In this document: one piece after another, positions 9,713 to 38,631 of the stretch
How the letters are laid out: each line of letters opens with the position of its first letter
Position numbering within the stretch: position 1 is the first letter of the stretch
IMG/VR virus record: IMGVR_UViG_2660238524_000003
Length of the DNA stretch: 40,665 nucleotides
Source of the DNA: a virus
Lineage: Duplodnaviria; Heunggongvirae; Uroviricota; Caudoviricetes
Strand: one strand, 5' to 3'
Notes under the pieces: model-generated
The model's input: the letters and a program-made list of their open reading frames with translations, nothing else
Told to the model about the DNA's origin: nothing
Database searches by the model: none
Program-made: the position numbers and the translations under genes

Positions 9713-9766
9713 ACTGAATCTCCCGTCCAAAAGCGCAAATCATGCCATGCAGGCCAGAAACGGCCA

Positions 9767-9792
9767 TTATTTAAAACCTCGGTTTACGAGAA
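9767..9792. other. gix/hix-like crossover site (left)
   Basis: TTATTTAAAACCTCGGTTTACGAGAA, a 26-bp imperfect palindrome with the AAACC-NN-GGTTT core of Gin/Hin/Cin sites as recalled. Confidence 0.6.
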
Positions 9793-10488
9793 CTCGGCAC
9801 AAGCGGGGAGAAAATACCGTTACTCAGTACAGCGAATACCTGGACCAATCGACAAACATTCAGCGGTGGCCTTTCTGGGGAACTGTCCGGCAATGCCGCT
9901 ACTGCAACAAAGCTGAAAACAGCACGAAAAATTGCTGGAGTTGGTTTTGATGGTTCTAGCGATATTTCAATTAGTGCCAAAAATGTCAATGCATTTGCAC
10001 TCCGACAAACAGGTAATACTGTTAATGGTGATACATCCGTTGGATGGAATTGGGATAGTGGTGCATATAACGCCATGATTGGTGGTGCATCTGCATTAAT
10101 TCTTCACTTTAATATAAATGCTGGTAGCTGTCCTGCCGTACAATTCCGTGTGAATTATAAAAATGGTGGCATTTCCTACAGGTCGGCTCGTGATGGTTAT
10201 GGGTTTGAATTAGGTTGGTCAGATTTCTATACCACGACACGAAAACCTTCAGCGGGAGATGTTGGTGCATATACGCGGACAGAATGTAACTCAAGGTTTA
10301 TTACAGGTATTCGCCTTGGCGGTCTGTCATCTGTTCAGACATGGAATGGTCCCGGCTGGTCTGACAGGTCAGGTTATGTCGTTACGGGTTCAGTTAACGG
10401 AAACCGTGATGAATTAATTGATACAACACAGGCAAGGCCAATTCAGTATTGCATTAATGGGACGTGGTATAACGCGGGGAGTATTTAA
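9775..10488 (+). CDS. alternative tail-fibre C-terminal variable cassette, silent in this orientation
   Basis: Frame open from 9775 with no start codon; encodes ...[29 protein letters not shown]..., parallel to but diverged from the expressed H C-terminus. Confidence 0.75.
   Translation, partial: NLGLRELGTSGEKIPLLSTANTWTNRQTFSGGLSGELSGNAATATKLKTARKIAGVGFDGSSDISISAKNVNAFALRQTGNTVNGDTSVGWNWDSGAYNAMIGGASALILHFNINAGSCPAVQFRVNYKNGGISYRSARDGYGFELGWSDFYTTTRKPSAGDVGAYTRTECNSRFITGIRLGGLSSVQTWNGPGWSDRSGYVVTGSVNGNRDELIDTTQARPIQYCINGTWYNAGSI
9776..9878. repeat. left inverted repeat of invertible segment
   Basis: 9776-9845 is an exact reverse complement of 12531-12462; identity continues with one mismatch to 9878/12429. 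Confidence 0.9.
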
Positions 10489-10490
10489 CG

Positions 10491-11024
10491 ATGATGCACT
10501 TAAAAAACATTACTGCTGGCAACCCTAAAACAAAAGAGCAATACCAGCTAACAAAGCAATTTAACATCAAATGGCTTTATTCAGCTGATGGAAAAAACTG
10601 GTATGAGGAACAAAAGAATTTCCAGCCAGACACTTTGAAAATGGTCTATGACCATAACGGCGTTATTATTTGTATTGAAAAGGATGTTTCAGCAATTAAT
10701 CCGGAAGGCGCAAGCGTCGTTGAATTACCTGATATTACAGCAAATCGCCGGGCTGATATTTCGGGGAAATGGATGTTCAAAGATGGCGTAGTGGTAAAGC
10801 GAACTTATACCGAGGAAGAGCAGAGGCAACAAGCGGAAAATGAAAAGCAGAGCCTGTTGCAACTTGTCAGGGATAAAACTCAGCTATGGGACTCACAGCT
10901 ACGGCTGGGCATCATTTCCGACGAGAATAAACAAAAATTAACCGAGTGGATGCTCTATGCGCAGAAAGTCGAATCCACAGACACCTCCAGCCTGCCAGTA
11001 ACATTTCCCGAACAACCTGAATGA
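10491..11024 (+). CDS. tail fibre assembly protein, alternative copy
   Basis: 177 aa, MMHLKNI... paralogous to the 11053-11580 copy. Confidence 0.85.
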   Translation: MMHLKNITAGNPKTKEQYQLTKQFNIKWLYSADGKNWYEEQKNFQPDTLKMVYDHNGVIICIEKDVSAINPEGASVVELPDITANRRADISGKWMFKDGVVVKRTYTEEEQRQQAENEKQSLLQLVRDKTQLWDSQLRLGIISDENKQKLTEWMLYAQKVESTDTSSLPVTFPEQPE

Positions 11025-11027
11025 GAC

Positions 11028-11058
11028 AAGGCCCGATAACGGGCCTTAATTTTTATTC
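11028..11058. terminator. stem-loop between convergent assembly genes
   Basis: ggcccg-ataa-cgggcc hairpin (11030-11045) followed by T-rich run. Confidence 0.45.
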
Positions 11059-11580
11059 AGGCTTTTGTGGCCATTCAGGATTTGCCGTATCCACACGGTT
11101 GACCAGAACACTGTAGCGTTCCCATGCTTCCAGTCGTGTGCGTTCCTCGTCTGTTGCCATATTCAGCCTGACAGCGCGTTCCAGCGGCTGGATGACTGAT
11201 TCAGCTTCGGAAAGCAATGCGGCCTTTTGTGATTCGGCCTGTTGTTGCTGTTCGTCAGCCGTATAAATCCGTTTAACCACAGCTCCGTCCTTAAACATCC
11301 ACTTACCGGAATCATCGGTCCGACGATTGGCCGTTATATCGGGAACCTCGACGACGCTAAAACCTTCGGGATTAAGCGTGGAGGCATCTCTGGTGATGGC
11401 GACAATAATATTATTTTCATCGTAAACAATCTTTATGGTGTCTGGCTGAAAGTTTTTCACTTCCTCATACCAGTTTTTTCCGTCCTCAGAGTAAAGCCAG
11501 ATAACTCCGTGTTTCTTTGTTAACTCATACTGTTCCAGTGTTTTAGCATTACCCGCTTTTATGTTCTTTAAGTGCATCAT
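11053..11580 (-). CDS. tail fibre assembly protein (expressed orientation)
   Basis: 175 aa, immediately downstream of H on the same strand. Confidence 0.88.
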
Positions 11581-11581
11581 A

Positions 11582-13804
11582 TTAAACGCTCGCTACATTA
11601 TACCAGGTGCCATTTATATACTTTTGAACGGGTCTGTAATAAACACCCGCTATATTATCGGCAGAGTTAGACCCTGTATCCTGAACATTAATACCAGACA
11701 ATACATGACCTGAAGGGCACTGGAAATTCCATGTTCGCCAGTTGTTCACTCCATAATATTGCTGTGAACCAAGTCGAACATCTTTCACATAACGGGAATC
11801 AAAGTTACCGTAATCCGAGGGATTAACACGCCCCGTAATATTTATGGTCTTATTACTTTGAATGCTTCCGGGAACAAAGCGCATAACATGGACGTAATTA
11901 GCATAAACATCCAGATTACCATCGCCATTTTGTTTAAAGCCCGTGTCATTATCACCCAATACAATCGAATTACCGCCAAGAGCACTGGATGTTCCGATAC
12001 CCAGTGCACCATTCAGTTGACCACCAGATAACGGCAGTGCACCAACATCTCCTGCTGAAGGTTTTCTGGTGGTGGTGTAAAATTCGGACCAGTCGGCTTC
12101 AAAACCATAACCATCACGGGCTGAACGATAAAAAATACCGCCATTTTTATAATTAATCCGAAACTGAGCTGCAGGACAACTTCCGTCTCCCATATAAAAA
12201 TGAATAATTAACGTTGATGCACCACCAATATTTGCGTTATAGGCTCCGCTACTCCAGTTCCATCCAACTGCTTTATCATTCGCAACGGTGCTTCCTGTTT
12301 TCCCTAAGGCAAACGCACCAACATGACTTGCTTTTAATGTGATATCGGAGGAACCATCAAAAGCCACATTGCTTATTTTCCTGGCAGTTTTTAATTTTGC
12401 AGCTGTAGAAGCATTGCCGGATAGTTCACCAGAAAGGCCACCGCTGAATGTTTGTCGATTAGTCCAGGTATTCGCTGTACTGAGTAACGGTATTTTCTCC
12501 CCGCTTGTGCCGAGTTCTCGTAAACCGAGGTATTCGATAACGGCAGCAACGGTCGATTTCGCAAGAATATCCCGCCCGACTTTTGTCAGGGTTGCCAGGC
12601 TGGCGACATCATTCCCCGTAAAATACGGAAACTTGCCTGCCGCAGTAGTAAGTCCGGCCAGCGCCGTCAGGGTGGCATCTTTCGGTTGCTTACCCGCAAG
12701 CGCGTTAGTCATGGTGGTCGCAAAATTCGGGTCGTTGCCCAGCGCCGCAGCCAGCTCGTTCAGCGTGTTCAGTGCATCAGGTGACGAATCTACAAGGGCG
12801 GCAATCGCAGCCATAACGAAAGCCGTGCTTGCGATTTGGGTATTATTCGTTCCCTGTCGCGCAGTTGGTGTTGTTGGCGTTCCGGTCAGTGCAGGACTAT
12901 TTAAGGGCGCTTTCTTGTTCGTTTCATCCATTACCGCCTTAACAGCTTTCGATGTCGCGGCCAGTGTTTCAGACGTGCTGTTGGTGGCACTACTGAGCTG
13001 GACTATCCCTTTTTGTGCCGTCGTGGCGTCCTGAGCGGTATATTTTGCGTTAGCAAGGTCATACGCGGCCTTTACTGCTTTCGGCGTTGCAGCCTGCGTT
13101 TCAGACGTGCTGTTGGTGGCGCTACTGAGCTGGACAAGGCCTTTTCGCGTCGTGCTGGCATCCTGCGCAGTATATTTACCGTTAGCAAGGTCATACGCGG
13201 CCTTTACTGCTTTCGGCGTTGCAGCCTGCGTTTCAGACACGCTGTTAGTGGCGCTACTGAGTTGAACAAAGCCTTTTGCGGTCAGCGAGGCGTCCGGGTG
13301 ACGTCGTGACTGTTCATGCTCTTTCAGTTTGTCATCCACGTAATCCACTGTGGCCATCACCATGGTGTTATCCACGGTAAGCACCACGGTGGCAGTGCTG
13401 GATACGGTCAGAATGGTGCGAAATGTTTGTGCACGACCGGACCCTTCGGCAACGGCTGGCTTGTAACTTTCGGCAGTATTGCCCACCGCGATTAAATCGC
13501 CGTGCTCATCAAATACACCAATTTCCCGGATCCAGAATCCGCCCGTTTCAGGAGGAATAACCAGCTCCGCAATAATGCGGTTCTGATGTGTTGCGTCCAG
13601 GATGACGCGATTAACAGTATGTCGCCACACCTCATGCACCAGACGGGTCTGCTTACTGTCTGGTGTGGGCAACGTGCCGCCACCGTCGCCCACGGCCATA
13701 TGAGTCAGGCGGACAGGCTTACCATCTGGCGCGGCTGCCTGAGCTAATTTTTTGGCACCCGTATCGGTGATAACGGTTTTAAATTTACGTGTTGTGGTAC
13801 TCAT
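11582..13804 (-). CDS. tail fibre protein H
   Basis: 740 aa; N-terminus resembles P2 H. The C-terminal ~310 codons lie inside the invertible segment. Confidence 0.92.
12429..12531. repeat. right inverted repeat of invertible segment
   Basis: Reverse complement of 9776-9878; gix-like site at 12515-12540. Confidence 0.9.
12934..13330. repeat. three tandem 132-bp repeats inside tail fibre gene
   Basis: gtttcagac(g/a)... recurs at 12966, 13098 and 13230; encodes three 44-aa repeats (...[33 protein letters not shown]...). Confidence 0.75.
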
Positions 13805-24105: not shown

Positions 24106-25857
24106 ATGATTCAGGACGCTTTTGTGCGCCAGCGTGCGCGGCAACTTTACTGGCAGGGTTATCCGCCCGCAGAAATATCACGTCTGATGGGAATAAACCC
24201 GAACACGATTTATGCGTGGAAAAAACGTGACCAGTGGGATGAAACGCCACCCGTGCAGCGTGTCACGCAGTCCATCGATGCGCGCCTCATCCAGCTTACT
24301 GAAAAACAGAATAAAACAGGCGGTGACTTTAAGGAAATAGACCTGCTGACCCGGCAGCTTAAAAAGCTGCATGATGGCCAGCCGGATGTGATGGCCGCAG
24401 GAAAGAAAGGCCGGGCGAAAAAACTCAAAAATCATTTCACGCCGGAACAGATTGCCGCACTGCGGGAAAAAATCATCAGCAGGCTGGAGTGGCATCAGCG
24501 GGGCTGGTTTGACTCCCTGACCCTTTGCAGGGAAGCCGGGATACGTAACAGGATGATCCTGAAATCCCGACAGATTGGGGCGACCTGGTATTTTGCACAG
24601 GAAGCACTGCTGATGGCGCTGCGTGACGATGTGGCGCAACCTTACCAGCGTAACCAGATTTTTTTGTCTGCGTCGCGTCGTCAGGCGTTCCAGTTTAAAA
24701 GCATTATTCAGAAGGCCGCGGCTGAAGTTGATGTGGAGCTGAAAGGGGGCGATAAAATCATCCTCTCCAACGGCGCAGAGCTGCATTTTCTCGGCACTTC
24801 TGCTGCGTCGGCACAGTCCTATACGGGCAATTTTTATTTTGATGAATTTTTCTGGGTCAGTCGCTTTGCTGAACTGCGCAAGGTGGCTGGCGCTATGGCA
24901 ACCCTCAGCGGACTGCGGCGCACCTACTTCTCCACGCCATCCACCGAAACGCACGAGGCATACGCCTACTGGAACGGCGACCGCTGGAACGAGAAAAAGG
25001 CCTCGCATAAACGCCAGCGTTTTTCTGTGGACTGGAAAACGCTGCATAATGGGCTTATCTGCCCTGACCGGACGTGGCGGCAAATTGTCACGCTGGAAGA
25101 TGTGGTTAATCACGGCTGGAAACACACCGATATCGACGAAATTCGTGATGAAAACACCGAAGACGAGTTCCTCAATCTCTATATGTGTGAGTTTGTCCGC
25201 GAAGGGGAATCGGCATTTAACCTGAATATCCTGATTGGCTGCGGTGTTGACGGATACGACGACTGGAAAGACTGGAAACCTTTTGCTCCCCGCCCGATGG
25301 GGAATCGTCCGGTATGGATTGGGTATGACGCAAACGGCAGTAGTGGCAACGGCGACAGCGGCGCTGTGTCCGTGGTGGTTCCTCCGGCTGTTCCTGGCGG
25401 CCGTTTTCGAACGGTGGAGACGCGACGCGTTCAGGGGCTGGAGTTTGAAGAACAGGCCAGAGTCATTGAAGAGTTCACGTGTCGCTACAACGTGGAACAC
25501 ATCGGCATTGATGTGACGGGCGGGAACGGGGAGGCTGTTTATCAGATAGTGAAGCGGTTTTTCCCTGCTGCTATTCCGTACACCTTCACGCTGTCATCAA
25601 AACGGTCGCTGGTACTGAAAATGCTGCAAATAATGCGTGCCGGGCGGTGGGAATACGATCGCGCCGAACGCGAGCTGGTCGCGGCCTTTAACGCCGTGCG
25701 TAAGGTGAAAACACCGGGCGGCTTTATCACTTACGAAACGGACCGCGCGAGGGGGATCAGCCACGGCGACCTTGCGTGGGCAACCATGCTTGCTGTCATT
25801 AACGAACCAATTGGCGGCGAAGGAGAAAACGAGCGTTTCATGGTTATGGAGTTCTGA
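24106..25857 (+). CDS. terminase ATPase (large) subunit P
   Basis: 583 aa, size and position as P2 gpP. Confidence 0.93.
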   Translation: MIQDAFVRQRARQLYWQGYPPAEISRLMGINPNTIYAWKKRDQWDETPPVQRVTQSIDARLIQLTEKQNKTGGDFKEIDLLTRQLKKLHDGQPDVMAAGKKGRAKKLKNHFTPEQIAALREKIISRLEWHQRGWFDSLTLCREAGIRNRMILKSRQIGATWYFAQEALLMALRDDVAQPYQRNQIFLSASRRQAFQFKSIIQKAAAEVDVELKGGDKIILSNGAELHFLGTSAASAQSYTGNFYFDEFFWVSRFAELRKVAGAMATLSGLRRTYFSTPSTETHEAYAYWNGDRWNEKKASHKRQRFSVDWKTLHNGLICPDRTWRQIVTLEDVVNHGWKHTDIDEIRDENTEDEFLNLYMCEFVREGESAFNLNILIGCGVDGYDDWKDWKPFAPRPMGNRPVWIGYDANGSSGNGDSGAVSVVVPPAVPGGRFRTVETRRVQGLEFEEQARVIEEFTCRYNVEHIGIDVTGGNGEAVYQIVKRFFPAAIPYTFTLSSKRSLVLKMLQIMRAGRWEYDRAERELVAAFNAVRKVKTPGGFITYETDRARGISHGDLAWATMLAVINEPIGGEGENERFMVMEF

Positions 25858-26903
25858 TGAGCAGAAAAAATAAAAAAGTGCGCATGAGTTCACGCATTGA
25901 TCTCGCTGATGCGCTCAGGAAAGAATCATCGCTCAGTGCATTCACATTTGATGGTCCTTATCGCCTGACCGGGCATGACCTGCTGGACAATATGTACTGT
26001 GCTGATAACGGGCGGTGGTATGAAACCCCGGTGGACTGGTACGGTCTGGCAAGAGCAGCCCGGCAAACGTCCTGGCATCAGTCTGCGCTTTACTTTAAGC
26101 GCAATGTATTACTCGGTTGCTACATCCCGCACCCGCTGCTTTCCCGGCAGGATTTCTCGGCGCTGGCGCTGGACTGGTTTGTGTTCGGTAACGCATTCCT
26201 TGAGCTTCGAAGCAATATGCTCGGCGAACCGCTTAAATTACGGCACGCCCTGGCGAAATACATGCGACGCGGAAGCGATCTTGAATCATGGTGGTATGTG
26301 CAGGATGGCAAGGACGCGTTTCAGTTTCGTCCTGGCAAAGTGTGCCACCTGATGAATCCGGATATTAACCAGGAAATCTACGGCATGCCGGAATATCTTG
26401 GCGCATTACTCTCGGCCAGCCTTTCTCATTCGGCGGACATGTTCAGAAAACTGTACTACGACAACGGATCCCACGCCGGGTGCATCATCTACATCGGTGC
26501 AGCGCAGGTAAACCGCGAAAGCATGGACTCCCTGAAAGAAACGCTACAGGGGGCACGTGGTGGTGGTGCGTTTAAAAACGTGCTCATTCATGCGCCCAAC
26601 GGGGGCAAAGAGGGGGTGCAAATTTTGCCGTTCCAGCAGATCACCGCAAAAGATGAATTCATGAATGTTAAGGCGGCATCCCGTGATGATGTGCTGGCTG
26701 CGCACCGCGTTCCGCCGCAACTGATGGGGGCGATGCCGGGCGAAAAAAGTGCGTTTGGCGATGTGGAGAAGGCAGCGCGGGTTTACGCAATTAACGAGCT
26801 GATGCCCGTTATGGAGGCTATGAAGCACATCAATGACTGGCTTGGCGAAGAGGTGATCCGTTTTAACTCTTATGCTCTTCTTGATGAAAAAACAGCCCCG
26901 TGA
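25857..26903 (+). CDS. portal protein Q
   Basis: 348 aa, size and position as P2 gpQ; TGATG overlap with P. Confidence 0.93.
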   Translation: MSRKNKKVRMSSRIDLADALRKESSLSAFTFDGPYRLTGHDLLDNMYCADNGRWYETPVDWYGLARAARQTSWHQSALYFKRNVLLGCYIPHPLLSRQDFSALALDWFVFGNAFLELRSNMLGEPLKLRHALAKYMRRGSDLESWWYVQDGKDAFQFRPGKVCHLMNPDINQEIYGMPEYLGALLSASLSHSADMFRKLYYDNGSHAGCIIYIGAAQVNRESMDSLKETLQGARGGGAFKNVLIHAPNGGKEGVQILPFQQITAKDEFMNVKAASRDDVLAAHRVPPQLMGAMPGEKSAFGDVEKAARVYAINELMPVMEAMKHINDWLGEEVIRFNSYALLDEKTAP

Positions 26904-26917
26904 TGGGGCTGTCCTTT

Positions 26918-27442
26918 TTACCAGAGTTGAACCATTTTCTGGGTGCCGTCAGGCTTGAGATTATCAATTTCAGAGAGAACGTAATATTGAATGGCTTCAC
27001 AAACGGTGGTGTAGGGTGAATTACCTTCTTTAAGTGGCACGATATTATTATTAACGCGAACCTGTATTTCATCGTTATACATTGCGATCGAAACAGGAGT
27101 GTGCACGAACGCGACTTCGCCAGGTGTGTCGTCAACCACCGTTTCAATACTAAAAGTCAGTTTTCGCTCATCATTGCTGCCCCGTGCTTTGGGGGTAGCG
27201 GCAGGGATCTGGGATAAAGGCATTCTGCGAAATCCTTCGGCTGCTTCCAGTCCGCATGAAACGTAATGCTGGCGATTACCGTCGCTATCTGTCCAGGTCT
27301 GTGATGGCAGCTCCAGCGAGATTTCATAAGCATCAACAATGCCCTGGGCAAGGCGTACAAGCGGGGTCAGATCTTCATTGCGGCGAAAGCTCTCCTTTAC
27401 CTGCTCCCGTTTTTCTCTTAACTGCTTGTAATTAATGACCAT
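26918..27442 (-). CDS. hypothetical protein (cargo between portal gene and cos-like region)
   Basis: 174 aa from ATG 27442 with GGAGG RBS 8 nt upstream; no family recognised. Confidence 0.6.
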   Translation of the reverse strand: MVINYKQLREKREQVKESFRRNEDLTPLVRLAQGIVDAYEISLELPSQTWTDSDGNRQHYVSCGLEAAEGFRRMPLSQIPAATPKARGSNDERKLTFSIETVVDDTPGEVAFVHTPVSIAMYNDEIQVRVNNNIVPLKEGNSPYTTVCEAIQYYVLSEIDNLKPDGTQKMVQLW

Positions 27443-27817
27443 AAGACAGCCTCCATTGATTTCTTTGCTCGTATTTTGCACTTATGAAGTATGGTCGGCA
27501 AGGTGCCGTATCGCTGACGCGCTTCGCTTGTCTGCTGCTTCGCCGGGGCATAAAAAATTTATGCCCCGGCTCTCCAGCTCCTGTATCAATCAGATAATTT
27601 CACGACGCCTTCCAGTTTATCGCCACCATCGACGGTCAGACTCTTACGCAATTCCACCGCGTTGACTGCATGTTCTCGCTGCCTCAGTGCGATTTTGACG
27701 GCCTTACCTTTCACCCCATCAAATCAAAAGCCCTCACGCCTTTTTCATGCTCAGCGTGAGAAATATGGCCATTCTGTTGTGTCTCTGCGACATCGTTCAG
27801 GGAATGCTATTTACCCC

Positions 27818-27835
27818 CTGAAACGCGGGCTGTTC
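27818..27835 (-). other. candidate cos-like sequence
   Basis: - strand GGTGACGGGGGAACAGCC loosely resembles the P2 cohesive end as recalled (GGCGAGGCGGGGAAAGCAC). Confidence 0.2.
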
Positions 27836-27941
27836 CCCCGTCACCTGCGCGCAGAAAAAGCGCGTTTTTTTGTGCACGCACGGATCCTTGACGGATCCAG
27901 CCGCCATGCGGGCCGGAAGGGTAAAAAGTCGTTCAAAAAAA

Positions 27942-27968
27942 TTGTGCAAATTTGTGCACTTTTGTGCA
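27942..27968 (+). repeat. three tandem 10-bp TTGTGCA repeats
   Basis: TTGTGCA at 27942, 27952 and 27962 (exact 10-bp phasing), just upstream of a TTGACC -35-like element. Confidence 0.7.
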
Positions 27969-27988
27969 GGTAAGCATGCCTATATATT

Positions 27989-28020
27989 TGACCGTGGCTT
28001 GCCTTTGATGTAGTTTATAC
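27989..28020 (+). promoter_or_regulatory. candidate promoter of cargo locus
   Basis: TTGACC followed ~17 nt later by TAGTTT/TATAC. Confidence 0.3.
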
Positions 28021-28068
28021 GTCACAAAAACCACAAAACGTGGTTATGATTTCTATGAGGGGGTTGAT

Positions 28069-28104
28069 ATGAAAAAAATGTATGATGAATTTGATGGTTT
28101 CTAA
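28069..28104 (+). CDS. 11-codon leader micro-ORF (MKKMYDEFDGF)
   Basis: GAGGGG RBS 6 nt upstream; followed 20 nt later by a strong terminator. Confidence 0.3.
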   Translation: MKKMYDEFDGF

Positions 28105-28123
28105 GCTACGTTGACCTCTAATG

Positions 28124-28151
28124 AGGCGGGGATTTGCTCCCCGCCTTTTTT
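28124..28151 (+). terminator. rho-independent terminator upstream of cargo gene
   Basis: gaggcgggga/tccccgcc 8-bp GC stem followed by T6. Confidence 0.7.
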
Positions 28152-28165
28152 ATGGATGAAATAGG

Positions 28166-28663
28166 ATGAACCCAATAACACTACAAATCATCAGCAATGC
28201 TATTGTTCTGCTTGGCGTTTTGGTTGCCATTGGAACCATTATCTACAATGTGCGTACCGCAAAAAAAACTCAAACGGCCAACTTTCTTTTTGAGAGTCGG
28301 CAAGATATGCAATATATAGAGTCATTGCATACCCTGAAACAAGTGCATCGTTCAGGCAAATCATTTCGTTCTTATGTTTTTCCTTGTGATGGTTGCATAA
28401 TAACAGATGAAGAAATGGCCGAGCGTCGAAAATTTCAATATATTTTAAATTTTTACGAGCGAGTTGCTGTAAGTATTCGTGAAGGTATTTATGATGAAAA
28501 AATGATAAAAAGAACATCTTACACAACAGTTGTAGAGACATATGATATTGCCGAGCCATTAATTAAAGCAATCAGAGAAAGCATTAATTCGGATACTACA
28601 TATCAAGAATTCGAATGGTTAGTAAGAAGATGGAAAGCTAATCCTTTACGGAAAAACAAATAA
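28166..28663 (+). CDS. membrane-anchored hypothetical protein (cargo gene 1)
   Basis: 165 aa; N-terminal TM helix (ITLQIISNAIVLLGVLVAIGTIIY) then a charged domain; AT-rich codon usage unlike the phage core. Confidence 0.7.
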   Translation: MNPITLQIISNAIVLLGVLVAIGTIIYNVRTAKKTQTANFLFESRQDMQYIESLHTLKQVHRSGKSFRSYVFPCDGCIITDEEMAERRKFQYILNFYERVAVSIREGIYDEKMIKRTSYTTVVETYDIAEPLIKAIRESINSDTTYQEFEWLVRRWKANPLRKNK

Positions 28664-28882: not shown

Positions 28883-28897
28883 GGTAATGACTCCAAC

Positions 28898-29401
28898 TTA
28901 CTGATAGTGTTTTATGTTCAGATAATGCCCGATGACCTTGTCATGCAGCTCCACCGATTTTGAGAACGACAGTGACTTCCGTCCCAGCCTTGCCAGATGT
29001 TGTCTCAGATTCAGGTTATGCCGCTCAATTCGCTGAGTGTAACGCTTGCTGATTACGTGCAGCTTTCCCTTCAGGCGGGATTCATACAGCGGCCAGCCAT
29101 CCGTCATCCATACCACGACCTCAAAGGCCGACAGCAGGCTTAGAAGACGCTCCAGTGTGGCCAGAGTGCGTTCACCGAATACGTGCGCAACAACCGTCTT
29201 CCGGAGCCTGTCATACGCGTAAAACAGCCAGCGCTGGCGCGATTTAGCCCCGACGTATCCCCACTGTTCGTCCATTTCCGCGCAGACGATGACGTCACTG
29301 CCCGGCTGTATGCGCGAGGTTACCGACTGCGGCCTGAGTTTTTTAAATGGCGGAAAATCGTGTTGAGGCCAACGCCCATAATGCGGGCGGTTGCCCGGCA
29401 T
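28898..29401 (-). CDS. insB: IS1 transposase InsB
   Basis: 167-aa ORF recognised as IS1 InsB; made as an InsAB' frameshift fusion. Confidence 0.9.
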
Positions 29402-29595
29402 CCAACGCCATTCATGGCCATATCAATGATTTTCTGGTGCGTACCGGGTTGAGAAGCGGTGTAAGTGAACTGCAGTTGCCATGTTTTACGGCAGTGAGAG
29501 CAGAGATAGCGCTGATGTCCGGCGGTGCTTTTGCCGTTACGCACCACCCCGTCAGTAGCTGAACAGGAGGGACAGCTGATAGAAACAGAAGCCAC
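29320..29595 (-). CDS. insA: IS1 InsA
   Basis: 91-aa ORF ([23 protein letters not shown]...) recognised as IS1 InsA. Confidence 0.9.
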
Positions 29596-29650
29596 TGGAG
29601 CACCTCAAAAACACCATCATACACTAAATCAGTAAGTTGGCAGCATCACC

Positions 29651-31683: not shown

Positions 31684-31714
31684 GTCGCTTTTCCTTATGT
31701 TGATTAATTAATCG

Positions 31715-31826
31715 TTTACGGGATTCTGAAATCCCGTTTTTGCCTGTTTTGTGCGCGCTTCATATATCGCTGCGCGTTTTTTGCTCATTTACGGGATTCG
31801 TAAGTCCCGTTTCTGTCTGTTTTTTG
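31715..31826. repeat. two ~39-bp palindrome-containing direct repeats upstream of the ParM-like gene
   Basis: TTTACGGGATTCTGAAATCCCGTTT (31715-31753, intergenic) and TTTACGGGATTCGTAAGTCCCGTTT (31788-31826, within the 3' end of gene A), 73 bp apart. Confidence 0.6.
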
Positions 31827-34582
31827 TTTCCACTGGTCAGGCCACCCCGCAGCAGGTCTGCTTTGCGGCTGGCGCGTTCAGTGGTTTCACTGATTCTCTG
31901 TGCGTGCTCTGCGTCGCGGATGGCGCGCAGCATGTCAGAAAGCACGGTAACGGGTGTTTTCATGGTGTTCTGGCCCTGCTGAAGTGTGGATGCCAGGCGT
32001 GCGGCGGCTTCAGGGTCTGATGCCCCCAGCTGTGCCAGATAGCTGGCGACCGGGTTATGGCGGATCTCCGTGCTGCTTACGCCATGATTACGGCTCAGGC
32101 GCTGCCAGAGCTGCGTGATTCGGCTGTCCGGGCGGGTATCCGGTTTGCGTACAATTTCAAATCCCTGCGGTGCAATGATGCTGCCGTCAACGTACAGACT
32201 GCCGCCCCGTAACAGGTGCTGCATCTGTTGTTCACCGATATGCAGGCCGAGAGATTCAGCAGACTCCCGCCATTCTTTAGCGAGTAATTCGTGGTTATCA
32301 GGCAAAGGCCGCTGCTGTTTGCGGCTCTGTGTCCAGCTCTGCATTTCATCGCTGCTGTTTTTTGCCTGTTTGTCACGAAGCGAACGCATCAGCGCCCGGC
32401 GTTCGTGTCGTTTCAGTGAGCGCATCCATTCGTTCACTTCAACGCCGTCAGGGAGCTGCGGCCACGGTGCTGGCCGTTCTTCCGGCTGTTCTGTCCCGTT
32501 GTTGTCCGTTTCCTGTACACGGGGACAGTTATTGCCACGAGTCCAAGGGGCGGCAGGGCCGCCCTGAAGGTCAAAACCATTTTCGCGGGCGCTGTCTTCC
32601 GCTTCCGGTTTACGTCTTACCAGCTTCCAGTTATCCGGATGCGTGCACACACGGGAGGATTCCCCGATGAGTGGTGACCAGATCCCGTAAATCTGTACGC
32701 TCTGTTCGCCGTAATCGTTCAGCTCATCTGCGAGGTCGTAGGCGGTGCGAATCAGGTAGTCCTTGCGTGGAACAAGCACGCCACCCTGTTTTTCAATGTA
32801 GGTGGCAAAACACCCGGCATCGGCGGCAGCGAGTACCGCATCCATTGCATCATCTTTCAGCCGTTGCGGGCCTTCCGGATTGCGTGCCATCTGGCTGGCA
32901 AGGCGGCGCAGTTCACGCCACACCTGACGGGAGGGGATGCCAAAGAACTGGAACTGACGGACCCGGTGAAGGCGCGCCCAGCCGATGGCGCGCTCCACGC
33001 TCTCGGCCATTGATTTTCCGGTTTCGTGGTCCACGCGTGGCTTGCCCGTTTTCGGGTCGATGCCATCCACGGCGCGGCTGTCCAGGTTCTTTCCGATGTA
33101 GGTGGCGATGTAGCTGGTTGGCGTGCCTTTTGAGCCGTCGACATACTCCACCTTAAAGCGCGGAGTAATATCATTGCCCAGCTCGTGGCGGTCTTCCTGA
33201 ATGGCAATATCGCGGGTATGGGACACAATGGTGTCGATTTCTTCCGGATGTGCAAAGACCATCATATGCCAGTGCACGGTGCCGTCATGATGAGGCTCCA
33301 CCGTGCGGATGCCATACCAGCGCAGGCCGTCGCGGTTCAGTTTTTTGCGGACCGCCGCAAAAAACGTGTTAACCAGGTAATCGCTGGAGTCGCGCATTGT
33401 GGCCCCGTTCCATTTGGGATTCGGATGACCGTTCTCCGTTGTGGCGTGGTATTTTGACGGGCAGGTGACAGTCAGAAACACCGCTTTGTCGCCACGGGCT
33501 TCGGCCAGAAGTTCCAGTCCCTTCATGGTGGCCATCATTTCTGCCTTACGGTGAACCGGGTTACTTACTCCCGCGTAATACACTGTCTCGAGATCAATCG
33601 TGAACCCGTCTTCATTTTCCAGCATGAAACTTTTCAGGAAATCGCGTGTTTTCTCGCGCTGTGCGCGAAACTCGCTTAACGCGTCCTGGCTCAGATAGGG
33701 TGATGTTTTTCTGGAAACCAGACAGGCGGCGCGGAGTTGTTCTTCTCTCCACTCGCAACGTAACAGCCACAGTTTGCGTTTCCACCATTCCGCACAGGTC
33801 AGGCGAAGGATTGCGCCCGGCAGCAGCTCCGTGTCCGGTTCGTTCCTCCGGTCTTTGTCTGTTGTCAGTGCGTCATAATGTGGAGGCATGGCGTGCAGGT
33901 GTAACGCCATGCGGGCCAGCATCTGATACGCCTTCAGGGTTACATCCATGGTCAGCTCGCCATCGGTCGCGCCAAAGCCATCGCAGAGTTTTTCGAAGGT
34001 GCTGCTGAACATCGCCGCCGTCATGGTGGCCAGCGTCTGTATCTGGTGTTTGTTGAGCTGCGGCAGGTAAAGCAAATCGTCCAGGCGTTCGCGTCCGGCA
34101 AGGGAGCGATAACCCGGTGTCAGCCAGCGTCCGTCAGTGCTATCCAGACGTTCGAATATTTTGCGCAGGGTTCCGCGTGCATAGCGTTCCGCCTGCCAGC
34201 TCTTTTTGCCTTTCCGGCGATCGGCTTCCTGTTTTTTGCGCAGGAAGGAGAGGTGGCGAATAAGCGGATCGCGCAGATAGGACGGCAGCAGGCGCAGCGA
34301 GGCCATGGCTTCATCCACCGCGCCACGTGCCTGTTTTCTGGCGTCTCCTGCCAGTGTGATGGTTTTGTCCTGTTTTTCCTGTGCGTCCAGGCTTTTATTA
34401 ATCAGGTTGCCCAGCGGCGTGGCTGAGAACGCCGCATCAGCCATTTCCTGGCGGCGCTCGTTCTCTGCCCGGTAGGCATCCAGCCAGGAGGAAAGCGCGG
34501 ATTCAGGAGCGGGGATCCCCGTTCCTTCACGCCCCACTGCGTGGCGCGGTTGTTGCCAGTCCCTGAGGTACTCTGCCGTCAT
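31760..34582 (-). CDS. replication initiation endonuclease A (rolling-circle)
   Basis: 940 aa; H-x-H metal motif (HWHMMVF) and position as in P2-like phages. Confidence 0.88.
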   Translation of the reverse strand: MTAEYLRDWQQPRHAVGREGTGIPAPESALSSWLDAYRAENERRQEMADAAFSATPLGNLINKSLDAQEKQDKTITLAGDARKQARGAVDEAMASLRLLPSYLRDPLIRHLSFLRKKQEADRRKGKKSWQAERYARGTLRKIFERLDSTDGRWLTPGYRSLAGRERLDDLLYLPQLNKHQIQTLATMTAAMFSSTFEKLCDGFGATDGELTMDVTLKAYQMLARMALHLHAMPPHYDALTTDKDRRNEPDTELLPGAILRLTCAEWWKRKLWLLRCEWREEQLRAACLVSRKTSPYLSQDALSEFRAQREKTRDFLKSFMLENEDGFTIDLETVYYAGVSNPVHRKAEMMATMKGLELLAEARGDKAVFLTVTCPSKYHATTENGHPNPKWNGATMRDSSDYLVNTFFAAVRKKLNRDGLRWYGIRTVEPHHDGTVHWHMMVFAHPEEIDTIVSHTRDIAIQEDRHELGNDITPRFKVEYVDGSKGTPTSYIATYIGKNLDSRAVDGIDPKTGKPRVDHETGKSMAESVERAIGWARLHRVRQFQFFGIPSRQVWRELRRLASQMARNPEGPQRLKDDAMDAVLAAADAGCFATYIEKQGGVLVPRKDYLIRTAYDLADELNDYGEQSVQIYGIWSPLIGESSRVCTHPDNWKLVRRKPEAEDSARENGFDLQGGPAAPWTRGNNCPRVQETDNNGTEQPEERPAPWPQLPDGVEVNEWMRSLKRHERRALMRSLRDKQAKNSSDEMQSWTQSRKQQRPLPDNHELLAKEWRESAESLGLHIGEQQMQHLLRGGSLYVDGSIIAPQGFEIVRKPDTRPDSRITQLWQRLSRNHGVSSTEIRHNPVASYLAQLGASDPEAAARLASTLQQGQNTMKTPVTVLSDMLRAIRDAEHAQRISETTERASRKADLLRGGLTSGNKKQTETGLTNPVNEQKTRSDI

Positions 34583-38208: not shown

Positions 38209-38631
38209 TTATGCCGGGCTGCTCCCGGCATCTTCTAGCTGCCATAATGTCTCGTCACCTGATAGAGCAAAACGAAATGAGTGAAGTATATCCCCCCGAG
38301 AGAAGCTCACGGCTACAGCTGCGGGAAAGTCAAATATAATCCCACCTTCATTTTTAAAACGATTACGCAATTGATAGGCTATCGGTTTGATTTGTGCAGG
38401 AAGAGTATCTATATCTCTTCCATTGACAACAGAATCTTTGTTTTCAAGTACTGATTTAGCGATTAGATATAGATGCCAGTAACTGGTTACAATTGTTACT
38501 CCTGTGATGTGTCGTAAATTAATTGCAATTCGTCCGTTATTATGTTTTTCCGCAAGGTATTTCAGGTTATCAATTAATGCTTGGTCATTTTTTGAAATAG
38601 TTATTGTGAAATCTGACGTGTTTGTTTTCAT
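38209..38631 (-). CDS. hypothetical early protein
   Basis: 140 aa from ATG 38631 (GAGG RBS); the longer track ORF to 38874 overlaps the upstream gene out of frame. Confidence 0.45.
   Translation of the reverse strand: MKTNTSDFTITISKNDQALIDNLKYLAEKHNNGRIAINLRHITGVTIVTSYWHLYLIAKSVLENKDSVVNGRDIDTLPAQIKPIAYQLRNRFKNEGGIIFDFPAAVAVSFSRGDILHSFRFALSGDETLWQLEDAGSSPA
38211..38231. terminator. hairpin between convergent genes
   Basis: atgccggg-ctgct-cccggcat 8-bp stem; weak U tracts. Confidence 0.35.

What the first reader, a model, noticed from the sequence alone, without database searches (positions are those of the whole stretch)
27942..28151. Phased TTGTGCA repeats, leader peptide and terminator upstream of the cargo locus
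Three TTGTGCA motifs at exact 10-bp spacing lie on one helical face just upstream of a -35-like hexamer. An 11-codon ORF and a strong terminator follow immediately before the first cargo gene. This looks like a regulator-binding array plus an attenuation-type leader controlling the cargo genes.
Basis: seen in the sequence. Interest (0 to 1): 0.4.

Follow-up and report, generated by a model that had tools for sequence, protein, structure and literature searches.

The report
Phage packaging repeats beside micro-gene leader
The three phased repeats most likely belong to the DNA-packaging (cos) signal of a P2-like prophage rather than to a gene switch, and the tiny 11-codon gene plus terminator next to them is a deeply conserved, so far undescribed partner of the cargo gene family DUF4760.

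Summary
TTGTGCA sits at 27942, 27952 and 27962, with a fourth copy at 27870. A TTGACC -35 hexamer, an 11-codon ORF (28069-28104) and a strong terminator (28123-28151) follow.

The interval holds two separable elements.

1. **Packaging region, 27827-27968.** This is the cos region of a P88-like (Xuanwuvirus, P2 family) prophage of E. coli ST131. It reads: a cohesive-end-like 19-mer, a GC hairpin, a lone site S, 72 bp, then three phased sites. P2, 186 and P4 have the same geometry with ATGCA instead of TTGTGCA. The S motif and the array motif always belong to the same class. The array is kept next to about 69 different cargo junctions. I infer terminase recognition sites (cosB-like); binding was not shown.

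2. **Cargo cassette, from 27969.** This is the left end of a DUF4760 cassette with its own conserved promoter. The micro-ORF MKKMYDEFDGF and its terminator precede DUF4760 homologues down to 30% identity (35 of 37 independent loci). The C-terminus is held at the peptide level.

The leader idea is partly supported, but no antiterminator was found.

The parts
27827..27845 (+). Predicted cohesive-end (cosN-like) 19-mer GGGCTGTTCCCCCGTCACC. Its reverse complement is GGTGACGGGGGAACAGCCC.
   Evidence: It lies in register with the annotated cos of P2, 186 and P4. It matches the P2 end GGCGAGGCGGGGAAAGCAC at 13 of 19 positions without gaps. Sister lineages carry the P2 12-mer CCCCGCCTCGCC at the same place. 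Physical ends were not mapped, so the cut positions are uncertain by 1-2 nt.
27847..27865 (+). GC hairpin followed by a T-run, in the same position as the hairpin right after cos in P2, 186 and P4.
27870..27876 (+). Lone TTGTGCA site ('S'), exactly 72 bp upstream of repeat 1.
   Evidence: The S-to-R1 distance is 72 bp in 147 of 149 unique TGTGCA-class sequences.
27877..27941 (+). Variable spacer. It holds ACGGATCC twice (27880-87 and 27891-98), a GC-rich partial palindrome, and an A7 tract (27935-41) that abuts repeat 1.
   Evidence: Mean column identity in the spacer is 0.59, against 0.81-0.92 in the repeats.
27942..27968 (+). Three phased TTGTGCA sites (R1 27942-48, R2 27952-58, R3 27962-68). 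This is the last conserved phage-backbone sequence before the variable cargo.
27988..28016 (+). Sigma-70-type promoter of the DUF4760 cassette: TTGACC, 17 bp, TAGTTT. The spacer carries a degenerate copy of the family palindrome ATTACC-N4-GGTAAT.
   Evidence: It is conserved in cassettes with and without an upstream array. The transcription start is inferred at about 28023-24 and was not measured.
28029..28045 (+). 5' stem-loop of the leader RNA (AACCAC...GTGGTT).
   Evidence: Relatives keep a hairpin here with different stems (TTCAC/GTGAA, GACTAC/GTAGTC).
28057..28104 (+). Shine-Dalgarno GAGGGGG (28057-63) and the micro-ORF 28069-28104, encoding MKKMYDEFDGF.
28110..28119 (+). Anti-SD element GUUGACCUCU. 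It is predicted to pair with the micro-ORF's own SD and start region.
   Evidence: All 24 relatives form a duplex of -10 to -13 kcal/mol. The advantage of cognate over non-cognate partners is weak (permutation p = 0.04).
28123..28151 (+). Intrinsic terminator between the micro-ORF and DUF4760.
   Evidence: Phage Shae_phiSM has a compensatory change, GGGGA/TCCCC to GGAGA/TCTCC. A hairpin plus T-run is present in 31 of 35 DUF4760-anchored loci.
28152..28169 (+). Conserved ATGGATGAAA stretch. It forms a 5-codon mini-ORF whose TGA overlaps the DUF4760 ATG, and probably also serves as the SD region for DUF4760.
28166..28663 (+). First cargo gene, a DUF4760 protein of 165 aa with an N-terminal hydrophobic segment that looks like a membrane anchor.
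   Evidence: PF15956, E = 1.8e-34. No PADLOC or NCBIfam match.

Best explanation
Two unrelated elements abut at 27968/27969.

**(A) The packaging region, 27827-27968.** This is the cos region of a P88-like, P2-family prophage. It reads: a 19-nt cohesive-end sequence, a GC hairpin, a lone TTGTGCA (S), a 65-bp variable spacer ending in an A-tract, and three TTGTGCA at 10-bp phase. S and the array sit 72 bp apart, about 7 helical turns, so they lie on one face of the DNA. I infer that they are the sites where the phage terminase, most likely the small subunit gpM, assembles to recognise its own DNA before cutting at cos. That would be a cosB-like function. The geometry and the conservation are shown. 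Protein binding is inferred.

**(B) The cargo cassette, from 27969.** A DUF4760 cassette starts here with its own promoter (TTGACC-17-TAGTTT). The transcript begins with a 5' hairpin. It then encodes an 11-residue micropeptide, MKKMYDEFDGF, from a strong SD, carries an anti-SD, and meets an intrinsic terminator. DUF4760 lies right behind the T-run, so it is made only from read-through transcripts. The most likely logic is a two-gene module. The micropeptide, or its short terminated RNA, is produced in excess, and the membrane-anchored DUF4760 protein is kept low by partial termination. Whether termination is regulated is not known.
For: **(A) Packaging region**
- The window is a P2-family prophage. 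The terminase and portal genes lie just upstream and the replication gene lies beyond the cargo. This is the cos-proximal hotspot of Rousset et al. 2022 (PMC9122126).
- In-register comparison gives TGCA cores at 105/177/187/199 in P2, 105/177/187/196 in 186, 105/177/187/200 in P4 and 106/178/188/198 in the window. The annotated cos of the first three lies at 61-79.
- Loci retrieved by the cos sequence alone, not by the repeats, carry an array at the same offset.
- The S motif and the array motif never mix classes: 149 unique sequences have TGTGCA at both, 45 have ATGCA at both, 10 pair a CATGCrGGTGA site S with a GATCC array, and none are mixed. The spacing is 72 bp in 147 of 149 and in 39 of 45.
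- In 32 lineage representatives, column identity is 0.92, 0.89 and 0.81 for R1, R2 and R3, against 0.59 in the spacer.
- The motif classes are monophyletic on the gpM tree.
- P4-like satellites share only cos with P2 (PMC9122126). They keep S and the triple even at 62-65% Psu identity.
- The array is followed by about 69 different junctions.

**(B) Cargo cassette**
- The promoter is conserved with and without an array.
- Of the downstream ORFs behind ...DEFDGF* micro-ORFs, 49 of 52 are DUF4760.
- Of unique loci found through the DUF4760 protein alone, 35 of 37 (100% down to 30% identity) have an upstream micro-ORF ending [DEN][DENG][FYWN]D[GW][FY]-stop. Of those 35, 31 have a hairpin plus T-run. 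The chance rate was 0 in 1850 shuffles.
- Among leaders retrieved independently of the ORF, every one carried DEFDGF, and the aligned relatives differ in these codons only at synonymous third positions.
- The terminator stem carries a compensatory change in phage Shae_phiSM.
Against: **(A) Packaging region**
- No binding or packaging data exist for the array.
- The only documented P2/P4 cos requirement I could find cited is a 55-bp conserved core (Ziermann and Calendar 1990, as cited in PMC5694545 and PMC3931495). By my alignment that core reaches S but not the array.
- In P4 and 186 the second and third sites also form a hairpin, which in P4 is the psu terminator. Their conservation there has a second possible cause.
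- Motif class follows the phylogeny of the whole phage, gpP as much as gpM. Co-variation therefore does not single out gpM.
- One public record (LR595891) is linearised between S and the array, at the window equivalent of 27923/24, not at my predicted cos.

**(B) Cargo cassette**
- No transcript data were available.
- No antiterminator was found.
- The SD/anti-SD helix rests mostly on invariant bases.
Confidence: 0.6

Rival explanations
1. The three TTGTGCA are operator or activator sites for a transcription factor that controls the cargo promoter 20 bp downstream.
For: The array ends 19 bp upstream of the -35. That distance is similar in other DUF4760 cassettes at this hotspot. In P2 the third ATGCA site overlaps the -35 of the mapped old-tin promoter. 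A protein bound here could therefore influence transcription as a side effect.
Against: - The array and the promoter separate in both directions. About 57 or more of roughly 69 right-hand junction types have no such promoter, and many start with a convergent terminator. The same promoter and leader also occur with no array in Enterobacter genomes and on 47-kb plasmids.
- 186 and P4 keep the array with no promoter beside it.
- The promoter family has its own candidate operator, the palindrome ATTACC-N4-GGTAAT in the spacer.
- The model does not explain site S at exactly 72 bp.
Confidence: 0.1
2. The array is the centromere (parC) for the ParM/ParR pair encoded 2.4-3.7 kb to the right.
For: ParR proteins bind phased short direct repeats (established knowledge of plasmid R1 parC). 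The prophage encodes ParM and a Plasmid_stab_B protein.
Against: Of 73 loci with a TGTGCA-type array and at least 6 kb of right flank, 41 have no ParM homologue. P2, 186 and P4 have the same architecture without ParMR. A separate candidate parC lies directly upstream of parM: two 42-nt direct repeats at 31712-53 and 31785-826.
Confidence: 0.03
3. The array binds another phage DNA-binding protein, such as a Cox/Apl-type protein or a late-gene activator. Its role would be recombination directionality, late transcription or replication rather than packaging.
For: Cox and Apl proteins of P2-like phages bind arrays of direct repeats at about 10-bp phase (established knowledge). The prophage encodes a Cox-family protein. 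One TTGTGCA lies in the cox-repressor intergenic region at 38392.
Against: The switch region has a single copy, not an array. P4-like satellites keep S and the triple next to cos, and the cos region is described as the only region homologous between P4 and P2 (PMC9122126). Position and geometry are fixed relative to cos in every lineage.
Confidence: 0.07
4. The micro-ORF is a purely cis-acting leader. The nascent DEFDGF peptide stalls the ribosome at the stop codon, or translation otherwise modulates the terminator 18 nt downstream. The result is regulated read-through into DUF4760, which would be true attenuation.
For: - The order is SD-ORF, 15-18 nt, terminator, DUF4760, with no second promoter.
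- The C-terminal six residues are conserved at the peptide level, as in known arrest peptides.
- An anti-SD follows the stop codon.
Against: - No mutually exclusive antiterminator was found.
- A ribosome at the stop codon would cover up to about 28117 and would not reach the terminator stem (inference).
- The stop-to-terminator distance ranges from about 15 to about 65 nt in distant relatives. The most distant relatives have no terminator at all and overlapping stop and start codons.
- The promoter, ORF and terminator persist at 80% nucleotide identity on plasmids without DUF4760.
Confidence: 0.25

Closest known systems
The 55-bp conserved cos core of P2, P4 and 186 (Ziermann and Calendar 1990, as cited in PMC5694545 and PMC3931495)
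   Same: Same genomic place: between the portal gene and the variable hotspot. Same order of elements: GCGCGC, a GC-rich 19-mer, a hairpin, then a T-run with an xTGCA site. The window matches this in register.
   Different: The 19-mer differs (13 of 19 positions match P2). The site motif is TTGTGCA rather than AATGCA. By my alignment the three-site array 72 bp away lies outside the 55-bp core. I found no description of it in the searchable literature.
Lambda cosB (gpNu1 R3-R2-R1 sites with an IHF bend)
   Same: Several copies of a short motif beside the nicking site. One site is set apart from the others by a spacer. The specificity is phage-specific.
   Different: The small terminase here is gpM (Pfam PF05944). 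From memory, that is a different family from gpNu1. The sites are 7-mers in direct repeat at 10-bp phase. No IHF site was established.
Phage P1 pac site (clusters of TGATCA/G hexamers flanking the cut; recalled from memory)
   Same: Two clusters of a short repeated motif bracket or adjoin the terminase cut site. A sister P2-like lineage even uses GATCC repeats at the array position.
   Different: P1 is a headful packager and its pac site is controlled by Dam methylation. TTGTGCA has no GATC.
Leader-peptide transcription attenuators (trp, his, pyrBI)
   Same: A short translated ORF is followed by an intrinsic terminator in front of the structural gene.
   Different: No antiterminator hairpin and no run of regulatory codons. 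The peptide sequence itself is conserved.
Nascent-peptide sensors (TnaC, SecM, SpeFL)
   Same: A very short ORF whose C-terminal residues are conserved at the amino-acid level and end at or near the stop codon.
   Different: Stalling has not been shown. The DEFDGF motif is not a known arrest sequence and appears in no relevant paper in the library.
Type III toxin-antitoxin or abortive-infection gene order (ToxIN)
   Same: The order is promoter, small first product, intrinsic terminator, then effector reached by read-through. This arrangement gives an excess of the first product. The module sits in a phage defence hotspot.
   Different: The first product here is a translated 11-residue peptide, not a repetitive RNA. 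DUF4760 matched no PADLOC defence model, ToxN-type included.

Membership tests
P2-family cos region | Lies between the portal gene (Q) and the variable region in front of the replication gene (A). | tested here: met
   The portal gene ends at 26903 and the replication endonuclease lies at 31760-34582. This is the hotspot described in PMC9122126.
P2-family cos region | A GC-rich 19-nt cohesive-end sequence related to GGCGAGGCGGGGAAAGCAC, flanked by GCGCGC and followed by a hairpin, a T-run and an xTGCA site. | tested here: met
   27827-27845 matches at 13 of 19 positions without gaps. Sister lineages share CCCCGCCTCGCC. The flanks are in register.
P2-family cos region | Virion DNA ends with 5' overhangs at this site. 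| not testable with these tools
   No terminus data were available. LR595891 is linearised 78 bp further on, for unknown reasons.
cosB-type terminase recognition sites | Repeated short motif next to the cut site, conserved above its surroundings. | tested here: met
   Column identity is 0.92, 0.89 and 0.81 for R1-R3 against 0.59 for the spacer, in 32 lineages retrieved without reference to the array.
cosB-type terminase recognition sites | The motif changes together with the terminase. | tested here: inconclusive
   Motif classes are monophyletic on the gpM tree, but they track gpP and overall phylogeny equally well.
cosB-type terminase recognition sites | Bound by the small terminase and needed for packaging. 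| not testable with these tools
   This needs EMSA or footprinting and cos-plasmid transduction assays.
Lambda cosB by homology | The small terminase belongs to the gpNu1 family. | tested here: not met
   The window's small terminase matches only Phage_term_smal, PF05944. The resemblance is in function, not ancestry.
Operator of the cargo promoter | The sites co-occur with the promoter they control. | tested here: not met
   The array occurs without the promoter in most junction types. The promoter occurs without the array.
ParR centromere (parC) | The repeats co-occur with parMR and lie at its promoter. | tested here: not met
   41 of 73 array loci lack ParM. The array lies about 3.7 kb from the parM start. 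Other repeats sit upstream of parM.
Cox/Apl binding arrays | The same motif is arrayed at the lysis-lysogeny switch and at attP. | tested here: not met
   There is one isolated TTGTGCA at 38392 and no array.
Classical leader-peptide attenuator | A short ORF with an SD, followed by an intrinsic terminator before the gene. | tested here: met
Classical leader-peptide attenuator | A mutually exclusive antiterminator structure controlled by ribosome position, plus regulatory codons. | tested here: not met
   Single-sequence and alignment folds show the terminator together with an SD/anti-SD helix and no competitor. The ORF has no codon runs.
Nascent-peptide arrest leaders | The C-terminal peptide is conserved independently of the nucleotide sequence. 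| tested here: met
   35 of 37 DUF4760-anchored loci. Motif variants include DEFDGF, DEYDWF, DEYDGF, EEFDGF, EDFDGF, GWDGF, GWDGY and ENDGY.
Nascent-peptide arrest leaders | The ribosome stalls on the peptide. | not testable with these tools
   This needs toeprinting or ribosome profiling.
Known RNA families (Rfam 15) | A match at the family's gathering score. | tested here: not met
   The best hit was SorX at 19.3 bits, against a gathering score of 46.6.

The most novel reading that the evidence does not exclude
The micro-ORF is not a mere leader. It encodes a functional 9-20-residue micropeptide with an invariant acidic-aromatic C-terminus, ...(D/E)(E)(F/Y/W)DG(F/Y)-COOH, and this peptide is the obligate partner of the membrane-anchored DUF4760 protein.

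Together they would form a widespread, undescribed two-component module of phage defence hotspots. It would work like a toxin-antitoxin or abortive-infection system: the peptide is made in excess because of the terminator and holds DUF4760 in check.

The tail resembles the C-terminal tips of single-stranded-DNA-binding proteins (E. coli SSB ...DDDIPF, T7 gp2.5 ...DGDF). That resemblance is recalled from memory and was not tested. If it is meaningful, the peptide could be a decoy whose displacement by an invading phage protein triggers DUF4760. The stand-alone copies on 47-kb plasmids would then be orphan 'antidotes'.
Probability: 0.15. Interest if true: 0.8.

Novelty: new variant of a known kind. 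Interest (0 to 1): 0.55.

Why it matters
**Packaging.** If S and the three-site array are terminase recognition sites, the P2 family would have at least three packaging-specificity classes (TGTGCA, ATGCA, GATCC) built on one fixed geometry.
- This would predict which helper phages a P4-like satellite can exploit. All 66 unique satellite sequences sampled were ATGCA class.
- It would tell engineers which cos fragment to use for P2/P4-based delivery cosmids.
- It would explain why the defence hotspot begins at exactly this base: the array is the last sequence the phage cannot afford to lose.

**Cargo.** DUF4760 is catalogued as a frequent occupant of the P2 hotspot (Table S5 of PMC9122126) but has no known function. 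Finding that it always travels with a peptide-level conserved micro-ORF, which genome annotation misses, and usually with an internal terminator, gives a concrete and testable handle on the family. It is also a reminder that hotspot 'systems' can include unannotated micro-genes.

Tried and rejected
- **Rfam scan of 27500-28400 at E up to 10.** Nothing came near a gathering score.
- **The generic promoter call GTCACA-18-TATGAT (28021-50).** Rejected because it is not conserved in relatives. TTGAC-N17-TAATTT is conserved.
- **The ends of LR595891 as a cos marker.** The record is cut between S and the array with no overlap. I could not tell whether this is a measured terminus. It conflicts with the in-register P2/186/P4 alignment, so I did not use it.
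- **P4-like satellites with a TTGTGCA-type cos.** These would have been an independent test. None were found: no Psu homologue lies in any array locus, and all 66 unique Psu-anchored satellite sequences are ATGCA class.
- **Covariation support for the SD/anti-SD helix.** RNAalifold did not recover it. Cognate duplexes beat non-cognate ones only weakly, with p about 0.04.
- **Literature.** I found no paper on phased repeats in P2-family cos, none on DEFDGF, and only an incidental mention of DUF4760. The primary cos paper (Gene 1990) is not held.
- **PADLOC and NCBIfam.** No model matches DUF4760. The second cargo protein has only a weak Csx27 match, E = 1e-5.
- **Structure prediction of DUF4760.** Not run. 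It would not have decided the question about the DNA elements.

Full report
**What the window is.** The 800 bp around the finding are 100% identical to a prophage of E. coli ST131 (EC958, JJ1886 and many others). They are 92-95% identical, over their left part only, to P88-like phages of the genus Xuanwuvirus, family Peduoviridae. In the EC958 annotation the order of genes is as follows:
- terminase large subunit (24106-25857) and portal (25857-26903);
- a small hypothetical gene on the opposite strand;
- a non-coding stretch;
- DUF4760 (28166-28663) and a 280-aa membrane protein;
- parR and parM;
- the replication endonuclease.

This is the cos-proximal defence hotspot of P2-like phages described by Rousset et al. 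2022 (PMC9122126). That paper's supplementary table lists exactly this gene set.

**The observation.** Three corrections apply:
- The micro-ORF runs from 28069 to 28104.
- There is a fourth TTGTGCA at 27870, exactly 72 bp before the first of the three.
- The generic promoter scan prefers a different, non-conserved hexamer pair.

The 7-mer is not enriched in the window overall. The phased triple, however, is the only one of its kind in 40.6 kb, and none appeared in 300 shuffles.

**The repeats belong to the phage backbone, not to the cargo.** Similarity to other P88-like phages stops at 27968, the last base of repeat 3. A pattern scan of IMG/VR returned 120 loci, of which 113 had the P2-like context with a GTGCA copy at or within 1 bp of 72 bp upstream. 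That set was selected on the triple, so I repeated the retrieval using only the putative cos sequence as anchor.
- All 132 loci with the window-type anchor carry an array at the same offset. About three quarters have three exact TGTGCA cores at 10-bp phase. The rest have one-base variants, mostly in the third site.
- In 32 lineage representatives whose spacers differ by more than 20%, mean column identity is 0.92, 0.89 and 0.81 for R1, R2 and R3. It is 0.59 in the spacer and 0.64 in the triplets between repeats.
- To the right of the array, 186 loci fall into about 69 unrelated junction types. Many start with the terminator hairpin of a gene that converges on the array. Only 8 clusters match a strict TTGAC promoter pattern, and a few near-variants raise this to about 12.

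**The same geometry occurs in P2, 186 and P4.** I read each genome from the portal gene through the annotated cohesive end. The TGCA cores fall at these positions:

| Genome | Lone site | Three-site array |
|---|---|---|
| P2 | 105 | 177, 187, 199 |
| 186 | 105 | 177, 187, 196 |
| P4 | 105 | 177, 187, 200 |
| this window | 106 | 178, 188, 198 |

- In the three reference genomes, cos occupies positions 61-79 and is followed by a GC hairpin and a T-run.
- The window has GGGCTGTTCCCCCGTCACC at 60-78 (27827-27845), followed by a hairpin and a T-run.
- Sister lineages with TTGTGCA arrays carry the P2 12-mer CCCCGCCTCGCC at that place.
- The published cohesive ends of other P2-like phages (GGTGAGGCGGGG... 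in phiRSA1, GGCGTGGCGGGG... in Smp131) resemble the window's reverse complement, GGTGACGGGGGAACAGCCC.

I therefore place cos at 27827-27845. This rests on homology. No physical mapping was available.

**The lone site and the array change together.** Among unique cos-anchored sequences the pairings are as follows:

| Site S | Array | Unique sequences |
|---|---|---|
| TGTGC | TGTGCA | 149 |
| AATGCA | ATGCA | 45 |
| CATGCrGGTGA | GATCC | 10 |
| mixed classes | | 0 |

The S-to-R1 distance is 72 bp in 147 of 149 and in 39 of 45. All three classes occur behind the identical P2-type cut-site 12-mer, so the cut site and the flanking sites are separate modules. The classes are monophyletic on a tree of the small terminase gpM. 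They track the large subunit equally well, so this does not identify the binding protein.

P4-like satellites share only the cos region with P2 (PMC9122126). They keep S and the triple even where Psu is only 62-65% identical and the spacer has changed. One caution applies: in P4 the second and third sites also form the psu terminator hairpin.

The literature available to me describes only a 55-bp conserved cos core. By my alignment that core reaches S but not the array.

**Alternatives for the repeats.**
- *Operator of the cargo promoter.* The array and the promoter occur independently of each other.
- *ParR centromere.* 41 of 73 array loci have no ParM, and other repeats lie upstream of parM.
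- *Cox-type sites.* The switch region holds only one isolated copy.

The best reading is a cosB-like terminase recognition region. Sites that lie 72, 82 and 92 bp from S are all near one face of the helix. That fits DNA bent or wrapped on an oligomeric small terminase, but this is inference.

**The leader belongs to the cargo cassette and is conserved.** Homologues of 27985-28155 exist in three settings:
- On 47-kb E. coli, E. fergusonii and Klebsiella plasmids, at 80% identity. They have the same promoter, hairpin, SD, ORF (MKKRYDEFDGF) and terminator, but no DUF4760.
- In Citrobacter phage Shae_phiSM, as MKKVFDEFDGF. The terminator stem carries a compensatory change, and a diverged DUF4760 follows.
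- In IMG/VR and GTDB genomes. A back-translated pattern for (Y/F)DEFDGF-stop found 66 IMG/VR contigs and 16 GTDB genome contigs, most of the latter from Enterobacterales. Of 52 downstream ORFs, 49 are DUF4760.

That search fixed the peptide in advance, so I repeated it in two independent ways.
- *Anchored on the anti-SD and terminator arm.* Every genuine leader found this way encodes ...DEFDGF. In the aligned relatives these codons differ only at synonymous third positions.
- *Anchored on the DUF4760 protein in metagenomes (100% down to 30% identity).* Of 37 unique upstream regions, 35 contain a micro-ORF ending in [DEN][DENG][FYWN]D[GW][FY]-stop. The two exceptions are a read-through variant and DEFEGF. 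Of the 35, 31 are followed by a hairpin and T-run. None of 1850 shuffled controls matched.

The promoter TTGAC(T/C/G)-N17-TA(A/G)(T/A)TT is conserved too. Most copies carry a palindrome, ATTACC-N4-GGTAAT, in the spacer; the window's copy is degenerate.

**How the leader may work.** The predicted RNA has three structural elements: a 5' hairpin, a helix pairing the SD and start region with GUUGACCUCU just after the stop codon, and the terminator. The whole fold scores -39 kcal/mol, z = -2.9. The SD/anti-SD duplex is present in all 24 relatives, but it rests mostly on invariant bases.

I found no antiterminator. The stop-to-terminator distance is 15-18 nt in enterobacterial copies but up to about 65 nt in distant ones. 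The most distant copies have overlapping stop and start codons and no terminator.

DUF4760 starts about 15 nt after the T-run, so it depends on read-through. I favour a two-gene module with a ratio-setting terminator, giving micropeptide or short RNA in excess and DUF4760 at a low level. A true arrest-peptide attenuator remains the main rival.

No Rfam family, PADLOC model, NCBIfam model or paper in the library covers the micro-ORF or explains DUF4760.

**Verdict.** The 'regulator array' reading is replaced by a packaging-signal reading at moderate confidence. The 'leader plus terminator' reading is partly upheld and extended to a family-wide, peptide-level conserved micro-gene. Neither element is described in the literature I could search. 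Both are variants of known kinds of element, and both can be tested directly.

Noticed in passing
window 28884-29650: An IS1 copy (InsA and InsB on the minus strand, 9-bp target duplication) interrupts the second cargo gene. That gene is an intact 280-aa membrane protein in EC958.
   Followed up: partly
window 9763-12544: The tail-fibre and assembly-gene segment next to a recombinase-family gene is inverted relative to EC958. This suggests an invertible host-range switch.
   Followed up: no
window 31712-31753 and 31785-31826: Two 42-nt direct repeats, 73 bp apart. Each has an internal palindrome ACGGGATT-N4-AATCCCGT. They lie just upstream of parM, partly inside the 3' end of the replication gene. 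They are a candidate parC centromere.
   Followed up: no
window 26918-27481 (minus strand): An extra 187-aa hypothetical gene lies between the portal gene and cos. It has no Pfam or PADLOC match and is absent at this place in phage P88_4B11. This looks like a second small variable spot on the portal side of cos.
   Followed up: partly
window 27880-27898: ACGGATCC occurs twice, 11 bp apart, in the spacer just after site S. A sister P2-like lineage has GATCC repeats at the array position instead of TTGTGCA. Both contain Dam sites, which recalls the methylation-controlled P1 pac site (from memory).
   Followed up: no
L111 8064-13613 (IMGVR_UViG_2913167280... contig): A satellite-like element. It carries a P4-type integrase, HicB and a ProQ/FinO protein, then a cos-like region with S, 72 bp and TTGTGCA x3, then a truncated GPO scaffold, a P2-family capsid protein and its own small terminase. 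No portal or large terminase gene is nearby.
   Followed up: partly
L284 2470-2700 (pCREC783_47k) and about six other 46-49-kb plasmids: A stand-alone copy of the promoter, hairpin, micro-ORF (MKKRYDEFDGF) and terminator with no DUF4760 downstream. It lies near ParA and XRE genes on non-mobilisable plasmids.
   Followed up: partly
L294 and L298 (contigs of 102 and 173 kb); L305, L317 and others: ORFs ending in ...FDEFDGF-stop also occur in unrelated phage contexts. One example lies directly upstream of a 340-aa protein whose N-terminus reads MKILHTGDWHLG, which from memory resembles Mre11/SbcD-type nucleases. The acidic-aromatic tail may therefore be a more general interaction motif.
   Followed up: no
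Promoter spacers of DUF4760 cassettes, e.g. L006, L075, L323, L351 (window equivalent 28000-28016): A conserved inverted repeat ATTACC-N4-GGTAAT overlaps the -10 region. This looks like an operator for an unidentified repressor. The window's copy is degenerate, CTTGCC TTTG ATGTAG.
   Followed up: no
L344 (IMG/VR): A deletion variant joins ...gccgccatgcg directly to cgtggcttgcc.... The deletion removes the A-tract, all three repeats and the -35 hexamer. This is probably a packaging-defective prophage remnant.
   Followed up: no
L002/L003 (LR595891 ends; window equivalent 27923/27924): The public P88_4B11 record is linearised between site S and the array, with no overlap or gap. It is unclear whether this reflects a measured terminus or an arbitrary cut.
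   Followed up: partly
L414-L493 (P4-like satellites): In P4-like satellites the variable hotspot starts immediately on the other side of cos, at the GCGCGC. The whole cos, S, spacer and triple block is nearly invariant. The second and third ATGCA sites double as the arms of the psu terminator hairpin.
   Followed up: partly
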